Source: a virus
Taxonomy: Duplodnaviria; Heunggongvirae; Uroviricota; Caudoviricetes
Virus record (IMG/VR): IMGVR_UViG_2551306525_000003
Reading direction: 5' to 3' (one strand)
DNA length: 15,395 nt
Below, one piece after another: positions 13,061 to 13,479 of this stretch (its first letter is position 1; each line of letters begins with the position of its first letter). The position numbers were made by a program, and so were the translations under genes. The notes under the pieces were generated by a model. That model saw only the letters and a program-made list of their open reading frames with translations, ran no database searches and was not told where the DNA came from.

Positions 13061-13195
13061 TGACAGCTCTGACGAACGTCTGATACAACGCCTTGCATGA
13101 ATGGCATCGGGTTAATCCAGAAAGGCATAGCATCGTGCCCACAAGAATCTGTGTAAGTGTCCTGTTTCTTCCACCCCCGCACAGGACTGGCGAGC

Positions 13196-13372
13196 ATGAG
13201 GGACAAACCCGCGAACCATAAACGCGGTAAAAACCCGGTGTGCATCGTTTTTGATTATTCCCGCACACTCGCGCAGAAGGAGTTCCCCGTCGGGCTACGG
13301 TCTCTGTTAATACGGGAATACGGCGACGATACAGCGCATGATGTGTCAGGCTTGAATACCTTTATCCGTTAA
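13196..13372 (+). CDS. Hypothetical small protein (58 aa), opposite in orientation to the late operon
   Basis: ATG 13196 with AGGA 9 nt upstream; translation MRDKPANHKRGKNPVCIVFDYSRTLAQKEFPVGLRSLLIREYGDDTAHDVSGLNTFIR. A plus-strand hairpin with T-tail follows 48 nt downstream. No family recognised; it may be non-coding structured DNA. Confidence 0.3.
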   Translation: MRDKPANHKRGKNPVCIVFDYSRTLAQKEFPVGLRSLLIREYGDDTAHDVSGLNTFIR

Positions 13373-13420
13373 AAGGGATATCAGTTAAGCTATCCCGTGT
13401 AGGGTATAAGCCATTATCAA

Positions 13421-13446
13421 AGCCACTCTGTAGGGAGTGGCTTTTG
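13421..13446 (+). terminator. Stem-loop with T-tail on the plus strand downstream of the small ORF (the stem also reads as a hairpin on the minus strand)
   Basis: AGCCACTC-TGTAGG-GAGTGGCT followed by TTTTGT: an 8-bp perfect stem. Confidence 0.45.
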
Positions 13447-13451
13447 TAATG

Positions 13452-13479
13452 GCAATAAAAAGCCCCGCGAATGCGAGGC
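13452..13479 (-). terminator. Rho-independent terminator-like hairpin downstream of Rz
   Basis: Minus strand GCCTCGC-ATTC-GCGGGGC (7-bp stem with one G-U pair) followed by TTTTTATTGCC, about 175 nt past the Rz stop. Confidence 0.45.

What the first reader, a model, noticed from the sequence alone, without database searches (positions are those of the whole stretch)
13157..13479. Small opposite-strand ORF with flanking terminator hairpins in the Rz-cos accessory slot, where lambda carries bor
This is the only plus-strand transcription-unit candidate in the window. It has an ATG with an AGGA ribosome-binding site, a 58-aa ORF of no recognisable family, and a strong 8-bp-stem hairpin with T-tail downstream, followed by a second hairpin oriented for the late transcript. 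The interval corresponds to the lambda bor/moron hotspot, where lysogen-expressed accessory genes sit. The region also carries nested inverted repeats (TATTCCCG...CGGGAATA with an inner CCCCG..CGGG), so it could equally be a structured non-coding element.
Basis: seen in the sequence. Interest (0 to 1): 0.45.

Follow-up and report, generated by a model that had tools for sequence, protein, structure and literature searches.

The report
Conserved structured element, not a gene
The 58-codon reading frame is most likely a chance ORF lying over a roughly 180-base non-coding element with a conserved fold; the same element sits just upstream of the bor gene in phage lambda and occurs in most E. coli lambdoid prophages, and I found no description of it.

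Summary
The sequence features are real: ATG 13196 to TAA 13372 (58 aa), a + strand hairpin with a T-run at 13411-13452, a - strand terminator at 13461-13480, and nested inverted repeats.

The gene interpretation fails.
- The ORF covers a ~180-nt module (13159-13339) found in 4342 of 5426 complete E. coli genomes and 438 phage records.
- In lambda, K-12 DLP12 and 933W-like Stx phages this module lies directly upstream of bor. There the frame carries an in-frame TAG or frameshifts.
- In Salmonella phages the frame is shifted and has no start codon.
- Only 47 of 148 variants keep an ATG-started ORF of at least 50 aa.
- Variable sites fall 22/17/16 across codon positions. pN/pS is 0.66, no better than another frame.

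The nucleotides keep a fold instead. Ten base pairs show compensatory double changes (shuffles 4.5±1.4, 0 of 500). The stem of hairpin H1 is almost wholly replaced in Salmonella phages around an unchanged loop.

There is no Rfam match, and it is neither PasB nor EcOnc10-12. This window keeps lambda's bor-upstream module but has no bor.

Best reading: a structured non-coding, probably RNA, module. The acting strand and the function are unresolved.

The parts
13159..13339 (.). Conserved ~180-nt structured module, homologous to the lambda p78(ybcV-like)-bor intergenic element. This is the real feature under the ORF.
   Evidence: Found in 438 phage records and 4342 of 5426 E. coli genomes. Homologous to lambda L128:1435-1535, DLP12 and 933W-type. 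Covariation test on A4: 93.5% of cells paired, 10 pairs changed on both sides vs 4.5±1.4 in shuffles.
13159..13187 (.). Hairpin H1: stem GTCCTG / CAGGAC around a conserved 17-nt loop, TTTCTTCCACCCCCGCA.
   Evidence: Five of six pairs change on both sides. The Salmonella type has TCTCGA / TCGAGA with the same loop. T-A changes to G-C at 13163/13183 within E. coli variants.
13209..13227 (.). Hairpin H2 (CCGCG / CGCGG). In other variants a different hairpin occupies this position.
   Evidence: Replaced by CAGC/GCTG (Salmonella type), TCTC/GAGA (933W type) and CTGCG/CACAG variants. It aligns poorly, so it was left out of the formal count.
13238..13339 (.). Long imperfect stem-loop domain. Outer and lower stem: 13238-13253 with 13321-13339. 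H4: TATTCCCGC 13256-13264 with ACGGGAATA 13312-13320. H5: CCC 13285-13287 with GGG 13292-13294.
   Evidence: H4 covaries: the lambda type has CCCGG/CCGGG, the Salmonella type TATCATTGC/GCGATGATA. The H5 loop varies and the hairpin is cleanly deleted in L053 and L043. RNAalifold recovers H1, H4 and H5 independently.
13196..13372 (+). The 58-aa ORF of the finding. Judged incidental, not a conserved gene.
   Evidence: No family match. Relatives are 35-91 aa with variable ends. No codon periodicity, and pN/pS 0.66 against 0.62 and 1.21 in the other frames. Only 47 of 148 variants have an ATG ORF of at least 50 aa.
13375..13396 (+). Spacer hairpin GGGATA / TATCCC between the module and the terminator.
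   Evidence: Read from the sequence and present in the MFE fold. The spacer sequence is different in the Salmonella type.
13411..13452 (+). Long hairpin terminator T2: core GCCACTC / GAGTGGC, flanks CCATTATCAAA / TTTTGTAATGG. It is slightly better formed in the + direction and probably works in both directions.
   Evidence: 19 bp plus UUUUGU on the + strand, 17 bp plus UUUGAU on the - strand. The flanks are conserved, and the hairpin sequence is replaced but still pairs in the 2851 and Salmonella types.
13461..13480 (-). Intrinsic terminator for the late (-) direction, after the 50-aa ORF that follows Rz.
   Evidence: 8 pairs (6 G-C), loop of 4, tail TTTTTATT.

Best explanation
The 58-aa ORF is not a conserved gene. 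It is a reading frame that happens to stay open in this variant of a ~180-nt non-coding module (13159-13339).

The module is a fixed part of the lysis-to-packaging junction of E. coli, Shigella and Salmonella lambdoid phages. In lambda, DLP12 and 933W-like phages it lies immediately upstream of the bor cassette. In this phage bor is absent and the module is followed by a ~70-nt spacer and back-to-back terminators.

What is conserved is a fold:
- a 5' hairpin (H1) with an invariant pyrimidine-rich loop;
- a replaceable hairpin (H2);
- a long imperfect stem-loop domain (H3, H4, H5).

So it most likely acts as structured RNA.

My committed reading is that it is transcribed in the accessory (bor) direction, the + strand here, giving a non-coding RNA of roughly 250-450 nt that ends at T2 (13411-13452). 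It would act as a regulatory RNA or leader.

Shown: homology, loss of the ORF in relatives, covariation, and the terminators.
Inferred: that it acts as RNA, on which strand, and what it regulates.

Probabilities:
- non-coding structured module rather than protein: about 0.85;
- acts as RNA: about 0.6;
- acts on the + strand specifically: about 0.3-0.35.
For: Homology and position:
- The core matches the segment directly upstream of bor in lambda and HK629, K-12 DLP12 and Stx2 phage II.
- Orientation is always opposite to the late genes, across 190+ loci with varied neighbours.

Not coding:
- In-frame TAG in the lambda, DLP12 and 933W types.
- Frameshift and no start codon in 18 Salmonella-type variants.
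- Start and stop variable in 73 protein clusters.
- ORF census: 47 of 148 intact.
- Variable sites 22/17/16 by codon position, pN/pS 0.66.

Structure:
- 10 pairs with compensatory double changes vs 4.5±1.4 in shuffles (0 of 500).
- 93.5% of cells paired vs 33-47% when the partners are slid.
- H1 stem replaced around an unchanged loop, and H4 re-paired, in the Salmonella type.
- RNAalifold recovers H1, H4 and H5.

For the + direction:
- T2 has a longer stem and a better U-run on +.
- T2 keeps its flanks while the hairpin sequence changes, in three variant types.
- A separate - strand terminator sits right next to it, the layout of two converging units.
- U·G pairs in the lower stem are invariant or alternate with U-A.
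Against: - No promoter is conserved across variants on either strand.
- In Sakai Sp10-type prophages and phage 2851, a strong + strand terminator ends 12 nt before H1.
- Minor variants at paired columns are more often A·C (18 columns, which is G·U on the - strand) than G·T (7 columns).
- RNAalifold energy is lower for the - strand (-84.9 vs -72.3).
- No expression data for the module were found. The nearby Hfq peaks EcOnc10-12 fall on the neighbouring 3' UTR, not on the module.
- At short evolutionary distances the module is no more conserved than third codon positions of Rz.
- Covariation rests on a few lineages: lambda type, Salmonella type and E. coli subtypes.
Confidence: 0.6

Rival explanations
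1. The module acts within the late (- strand) polycistronic transcript. It would be a structured RNA just after the lysis genes that serves as a processing site or a 3'-end stabiliser, for example an RNase III or exonuclease barrier separating lysis from packaging messages.
For: - The module is always inside the late operon and always in the same orientation to it, whatever the + strand neighbours are.
- In 30 loci it starts about 14 nt after the Rz stop codon.
- It needs no promoter of its own.
- A·C minor variants (G·U on the - strand) outnumber G·T at paired columns, 18 to 7.
- The - strand consensus fold has lower energy.
Against: - Several invariant pairs in the lower stem would be A·C mismatches on the - strand.
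- The Salmonella-type H4 has one or two U·G pairs only in the + orientation.
- In this window a strong - strand terminator (13480-13461) lies ahead of the module, so only Q-modified polymerase would transcribe it.
- No processing site is known in this part of lambda late RNA (my own knowledge).
Confidence: 0.28
2. One reading: a lysogen-expressed small protein (58 aa) encoded by an opposite-strand moron with its own terminator.
For: - ATG with AGGA 9 nt upstream, and an open frame to 13372.
- PGAP annotates it.
- A 35-aa core (PVCIVFDYSRTLAQKEFPVGLRS.L.REYGDD) recurs in 73 protein clusters.
- Phage Kati has a replaced N-terminus that stays in frame.
- A + strand terminator lies downstream.
Against: - No family match.
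- The frame is broken in the lambda, DLP12, 933W and Salmonella types while the nucleotides and stems are kept.
- Only 47 of 148 variants are intact, with 35 different C-termini and lengths of 22-136 aa.
- No third-position excess, and pN/pS 0.66, equal to an off frame.
- The AGGA is a hairpin arm and is absent in most variants.
- Stx-phage records leave the block unannotated.
Confidence: 0.07
3. A DNA-level feature or relic. It would be a conserved 'linker' used as a homologous-recombination joint for exchanging accessory cassettes between lambdoid phages, or a decaying bor promoter region left after loss of bor, with no RNA function.
For: - Homology boundaries are sharp on both sides, with unrelated flanks.
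- Two copies flank cargo genes in L168 and L176.
- bor-carrying types have a sigma-70-like TGGACA-N15-TACAAT inside the right arm, which bor-less types lack.
- Wobble evidence favours neither strand.
- The module is no more conserved than Rz third positions between close relatives.
Against: - Compensatory changes that keep four nested helices, with a conserved loop, are not expected of a mere recombination joint or a decaying promoter.
- The module is kept at no more than ~20% divergence across phages whose Rz genes differ by 35-39%.
- It is kept in thousands of bor-less prophages.
Confidence: 0.2

Closest known systems
Phage lambda p78(ybcV-like)-bor intergenic region, and the K-12 DLP12 ybcV-borD intergenic region
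   Same: Direct sequence homologue of window 13159-13339, about 78-82% identical over the core. It has the same orientation relative to the late genes and the same H1, H4 and H5 pairings, with compensating changes.
   Different: In lambda and DLP12 the module is followed by a PhoP-box promoter and bor. Here bor is absent and a spacer plus terminators follow. The lambda type carries promoter-like TGGACA-N15-TACAAT inside the module and an in-frame TAG in the window's ORF frame. I found no published function for this segment.
Prophage-encoded Hfq-dependent sRNAs of pathogenic E. coli: AgvB/AsxR anti-sRNAs, EcOnc candidates, Pas sRNAs
   Same: Small non-coding units in accessory slots of lambdoid prophages, restricted to Escherichia and Shigella, present in several copies per genome and mosaic in distribution (PMC4104026; bioRxiv 10.64898/2026.05.13.724894).
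   Different: - No Rfam hit to AgvB, AsxR, STnc100 or Esr41 in the window.
- PasB maps between gpI and gpJ.
- EcOnc10-12 map to the 3' UTR and terminator of the gene next to the module, once the genome-version offset is corrected.
- No Hfq or expression evidence exists for the module itself.
Lambda bor-type moron (promoter, gene, terminator, transcribed against the late operon)
   Same: Same slot, same orientation, with a downstream terminator.
   Different: There is no conserved protein product, no conserved promoter, and no similarity to Bor. Bor was not found downstream of this window's module, while it lies 100-150 nt downstream in 54 other loci.
Intra-operon imperfect palindromes such as ERIC/IRU or REP elements
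   Same: About 100-180 nt imperfect inverted repeats located in transcribed intergenic regions. They could modulate mRNA stability depending on orientation (my own knowledge).
   Different: This module is not dispersed. It occurs only at one position of lambdoid phages, always in one orientation, and shares no sequence with the ERIC or REP consensus as I recall them (not tested here).

Membership tests
Protein-coding gene (small accessory or moron protein) | Reading frame, start and stop conserved among homologues | tested here: not met
   - In-frame TAG in the lambda, DLP12 and 933W types.
- Frameshift and no start codon in the Salmonella type.
- 47 of 148 variants have an ATG ORF of at least 50 aa.
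- 35 distinct C-termini, lengths 22-136 aa.
Protein-coding gene (small accessory or moron protein) | Substitutions concentrated at third codon positions, with dN/dS well below 1 in the true frame only | tested here: not met
   Variable sites 22/17/16 at codon positions 1/2/3. pN/pS is 0.66 in the ORF frame against 0.62 and 1.21 in the other frames.
Protein-coding gene (small accessory or moron protein) | Membership of a known protein family | tested here: not met
   No Pfam, PHROG or NCBIfam hit. All 73 related clusters are 'hypothetical' or carry spurious names, and all are Escherichia or Shigella.
Structured non-coding RNA element | Base pairs maintained by compensatory changes beyond what column composition gives | tested here: met
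   10 pairs and 24 cells changed on both sides vs 4.5±1.4 and 5.9±2.1 in shuffles (0 of 500). Slid controls give 0-5 pairs. The test rests on few independent lineages.
Structured non-coding RNA element | Transcribed as RNA on a defined strand | not testable with these tools
   No RNA-seq access. Wobble evidence conflicts between strands. The - strand must be transcribed during Q-dependent late transcription, by inference from lambda biology.
Hfq-dependent prophage sRNA (EcOnc / Pas / anti-sRNA class) | Own promoter, Rho-independent terminator with U-tail, Hfq binding | tested here: inconclusive
   A terminator is present about 70 nt downstream. No promoter is conserved. Published Hfq peaks and Pas sRNAs do not coincide with the module.
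Any Rfam 15 family | Score at or above the family's gathering threshold | tested here: not met
   No hits at gathering thresholds over the window. Nothing falls over 13159-13339 at E up to 10. STnc560 scores 21 bits against a threshold of 55 and covers only the two terminators.
bor / iss lipoprotein cassette | Bor coding sequence and its PhoP-box promoter downstream of the module | tested here: not met
   No Bor match was found downstream of this window's module, where orf50 and Rz follow. The sequence after 13339 is unrelated to lambda's PhoP box and bor.

The most novel reading that the evidence does not exclude
Phage lambda and most E. coli and Salmonella lambdoid prophages carry a previously undescribed, functional structured RNA at the lysis-packaging junction. 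Its invariant pyrimidine-rich hairpin loop (UUUCUUCCACCCCCGCA on the accessory strand) would mediate a specific interaction. Examples would be a lysogen-expressed regulatory RNA that dampens leaky late or lysis gene expression, or a cis element that shapes the fate of late mRNA. It would be an overlooked regulatory part of the best-studied phage.
Probability: 0.3. Interest if true: 0.75.

Novelty: new member of a known kind. Interest (0 to 1): 0.5.

Why it matters
- Annotation. A 'hypothetical protein' (WP_001205130.1 and dozens of related clusters) called in thousands of E. coli genomes is probably not a gene. The block under it is unannotated in many phage records.
- Biology. The block is a discrete, covariation-supported structured module. 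It is present in lambda itself, in K-12 DLP12, in Stx-converting phages and in Salmonella phages, at a fixed position and orientation between the lysis and packaging genes. It is absent from Rfam, and I could not find it in the literature searched. If it is a functional RNA, it adds a regulatory component to lambdoid late or lysogenic gene expression, next to the virulence-linked bor locus. This is directly testable in lambda or K-12.
- Evolution. Its sharp boundaries, and its duplication around cargo genes, make it a marker, and possibly a joint, for exchange of accessory cassettes in this hotspot.

Tried and rejected
1. Family searches for the peptide in Pfam, PHROGs and NCBIfam: nothing. 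The first attempt failed on an off-by-one coordinate.

2. The - strand ORF 12997-13245 / 12990-13268, annotated in mEp460 and as 'putative late gene regulator' in Ayreon.
- The translation is Cys/Gly/Arg-rich, with no family match.
- Its ATG is lost in GTGTGT variants.
- Rejected as a conserved gene.

3. PasB sRNA (EPEC): it lies between gpI and gpJ, and its probe is absent from the window. Rejected.

4. EcOnc10/11/12 Hfq peaks (Tree et al. 2014).
- With the published coordinates, EcOnc11 seemed to fall on the core of the module.
- Anchoring on AgvB showed an offset of about +140 nt between NC_002695.1 and .2.
- That places the peaks on the 3' UTR and terminator of the ECs_1967-family gene just upstream. 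Rejected as evidence for the module.

5. Rfam: no family. The STnc560 and mir-458 hits are weak matches to terminator hairpins.

6. Search for a conserved promoter with a PWM scan on both strands: none shared by all variant types.

7. Strand assignment from G·U against A·C: contradictory.

8. Constraint relative to Rz third positions: confounded by mosaic recombination.

9. Plasmid search for bor/iss linkage: only 67 records, mostly lambda-like or contaminant. Uninformative.

10. Species-wide scan: non-Escherichia hits look like lambda control-DNA contamination (48.5-kb or 3.5-kb contigs), judged from contig size alone.

11. Literature.
- Searches for borD/ybcV found nothing relevant, and two were wasted on word-prefix matches.
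- Barondess & Beckwith 1995 and Liu et al. 2013 are not held in the library.

Full report
**Setting.**
- The window is a lambdoid (mEp460- or Ayreon-like) E. coli prophage with its late genes on the - strand:
  - holin 14615-14893;
  - lysozyme 14118-14615;
  - Rz 13654-14133;
  - a 50-aa membrane ORF 13514-13666;
  - DUF1441-type small terminase 12344-12838;
  - large terminase 10242-12344.
- The mEp460 genome end maps to about 12864, so cos lies there.

**The observation.**
- All described features exist.
  - ATG 13196 to TAA 13372, 58 aa.
  - AGGA at 13183-13186.
  - A + strand hairpin with core 13422-13441 and a TTTTGT tail, extending to a ~19-bp stem at 13411-13452.
  - A - strand terminator at 13480-13461.
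  - The nested repeats TATTCCCG / CGGGAATA and CCC / GGG.
- RefSeq annotates the ORF as a hypothetical protein.
- The mEp460 and Ayreon records annotate an overlapping - strand ORF instead.
- Neither ORF matches any Pfam, PHROG or NCBIfam family.

**What the block is.**
- The stretch 13159-13454 is extremely widespread. The whole intergenic region matches 347 phage records and 4342 of 5426 complete E. coli genomes, with a median of two places per genome.
- A more sensitive search with the core found 438 phage records, lambda among them.
- In lambda and HK629 the homologous segment lies between the stop of the ybcV-like gene (lambdap78) and bor.
- The same holds in K-12 DLP12, between ybcV and borD.
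- In 933W-like Stx2 phages it lies between the small terminase and bor.
- Across about 190 loci the module always has the same orientation, opposite to the late genes, but its neighbours vary.
  - Downstream: bor at 100-150 nt (54 loci), the 3' end of Rz directly abutting (30 loci), or the 50-aa ORF (27 loci, as here).
  - Upstream: a ybcV-like gene, an ECs_1967-like gene with its terminator, or a terminase gene.
- So this window keeps lambda's bor-upstream module but has no bor. After 13339 the sequence is unrelated to lambda's PhoP-box promoter and bor.
- A species-wide scan found the module only in Escherichia. The other hits have the contig sizes of lambda control DNA, 48.5 kb or 3.5 kb.
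- A divergent form exists in Salmonella phage S135 and 17 IMG/VR variants.

**Is the ORF a gene?**
- The 73 related protein clusters are all Escherichia or Shigella 'hypotheticals' of 35-91 aa. They share only a ~35-aa core, with unrelated N- and C-termini.
- In the lambda, DLP12 and 933W types the frame contains an in-frame TAG, and lambda also has a 1-nt deletion.
- In the Salmonella type the ATG frame stops after 18 codons, and the core frame has no start codon.
- Census of 148 distinct variants:
  - 47 have an ATG-started ORF of at least 50 aa in this frame;
  - 83 have only an internal GTG;
  - 12 have no start;
  - lengths run from 22 to 136 aa, with 35 different C-termini.
- Over the best-conserved 105 nt, variable sites fall 22/17/16 on codon positions 1/2/3. 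pN/pS is 0.66 in the ORF frame, against 0.62 and 1.21 in the other two. A protein under selection would show a third-position excess and a clearly lowest ratio in its own frame.
- The AGGA 'ribosome-binding site' is the 3' arm of a hairpin and reads CCGGAC in most variants.

**Is it structured?**
- The nucleotides keep pairings.
- H1 (GTCCTG 13159-13164 / CAGGAC 13182-13187):
  - it switches T-A to G-C within E. coli variants;
  - in the Salmonella type it becomes TCTCGA / TCGAGA, five of six pairs changed on both sides, around an unchanged 17-nt loop, TTTCTTC(C/T)ACCCCCGCA.
- H4 (TATTCCCGC 13256-13264 / ACGGGAATA 13312-13320) becomes CCCGG/CCGGG in the lambda type and TATCATTGC/GCGATGATA in the Salmonella type.
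- H5 keeps CCC/GGG with different loops, and is cleanly deleted in two variants.
- H2 is replaced by other hairpins.
- Formal count on 32 representatives:
  - my structure pairs 93.5% of cells;
  - 10 pairs and 24 cells are changed on both sides, against 4.5±1.4 and 5.9±2.1 in shuffles (0 of 500);
  - slid controls give 33-47% pairing and 0-5 such pairs.
- RNAalifold recovers H1, H4 and H5 on its own.
- Caveat: the compensatory events come from a handful of lineages.

**Which strand, and what does it do?** This is unresolved.

For the + (bor) direction:
- The long hairpin T2 is better formed and has the better U-run on +.
- T2 keeps its flanks, CATTATCAA...TTTGTAATGG, while its stem sequence changes in the window, 2851 and Salmonella types.
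- It stands back to back with a separate - strand terminator, the layout of two converging units.
- Several lower-stem pairs are invariant U·G, or alternate between U·G and U-A.

For the - (late) direction:
- The module is always inside the late operon, and in 30 loci it begins about 14 nt after the Rz stop.
- No promoter is conserved on either strand.
- In 2851 and Sakai-Sp10 types a strong + strand terminator ends 12 nt before H1.
- Minor variants at paired columns are more often A·C than G·T, 18 to 7.
- The - strand consensus energy is lower.

Other observations:
- bor-carrying types carry TGGACA-N15-TACAAT inside the right arm. This is the promoter predicted in the HK629 record. bor-less types such as this window have CGGTCT...TACGGC there.
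- Two copies of the module flank cargo genes in two viral contigs. That fits a role, or at least a use, as a recombination joint.

**Known things it is not.**
- No Rfam family.
- PasB of EPEC lies between gpI and gpJ.
- The Hfq-bound candidates EcOnc10-12 of Tree et al. (PMC4104026, Table S2):
  - they at first seemed to coincide with the module's core in Sakai Sp10;
  - anchoring the coordinates on AgvB revealed an offset of about +140 nt between genome versions;
  - the peaks then fall on the 3' UTR and terminator of the neighbouring ECs_1967-family gene.
- I found no paper describing the module. The classic bor papers are not in the library.

**Verdict.**
- The moron-gene interpretation is not supported.
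- The thing is a conserved, apparently undescribed structured module of lambdoid phages, lambda's p78-bor intergenic element, here orphaned from bor and followed by converging terminators.
- I put about 0.85 on 'non-coding module, ORF incidental' and about 0.6 on 'acts as RNA'. I split the strand roughly evenly, with a slight lean to the accessory (+) strand.
- The rivals remain open: a late-transcript element, a DNA-level joint or relic, and a real small protein.

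Noticed in passing
window 13514-13666 (-): A 50-aa ORF overlapping the end of Rz, with a hydrophobic N-terminus ([18 protein letters not shown]...). It matches PHROG 11822 (unknown function, E = 1.7e-37) and is followed by the strong terminator at 13480-13461. It looks like a real small late-operon membrane protein.
   Followed up: partly
L229 6445-6510 (Sakai Sp10, NC_002695.2 about 1946944-1947007, - strand); also Sp9 and Sp12: The abundant Hfq-CRAC peaks EcOnc10/11/12 of Tree et al. 2014 map to the 3' UTR and terminator of the ECs_1967 / ECs_2255-family gene. 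This holds after correcting an offset of about +140 nt between genome versions. The terminator ends 12 nt upstream of the structured module. This suggests a 3'-UTR-derived sRNA next to the module.
   Followed up: partly
L128 1655-1672 (lambda), L129 (DLP12), L130 (Stx2 phage II): A perfect PhoP-box-like direct repeat, TGTTTAGGGTTTGTTTAA, lies between the module and the bor start codon. From memory, this fits the reported PhoP control of borD. It is absent from this window.
   Followed up: no
L168 5056-5235 and 6006-6185; L176 about 10822 and 12607: Two copies of the module in the same orientation flank one or two cargo genes between Rz and the small terminase. The arrangement looks like cassette insertion by recombination between modules.
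   Followed up: partly
Genome-contig hits L131-L166: About 30 'genomes' of unrelated taxa (Pseudomonas, Shewanella, Paenibacillus, MAGs and others) contain the lambda version on contigs of about 48.5 kb or 3.5 kb. From contig size alone, I take this to be lambda control-DNA contamination of public assemblies.
   Followed up: no
window 12941-12970 (-) and 12960-12988 (+): An 11-bp hairpin with a T-run (terminator-like on the - strand) lies close to the cos end. It overlaps a + strand promoter-like site, ATTACA-N17-TAAAAT. That site could drive + strand transcription toward the module.
   Followed up: no
window 12990-13268 (-): An 82/92-aa - strand ORF is annotated in mEp460 and, as 'putative late gene regulator', in Ayreon. 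It is Cys/Gly/Arg-rich, has no family match, and overlaps the 5' half of the module. It is probably another spurious call.
   Followed up: partly
L046 6477-6659 and L059 1977-2159 (viral contigs): Homopolymer C-runs of variable length occur in the H1 loop and after the GAGGG motif (CCCCCCCCCC). These may be sequencing errors or a hypervariable tract.
   Followed up: no
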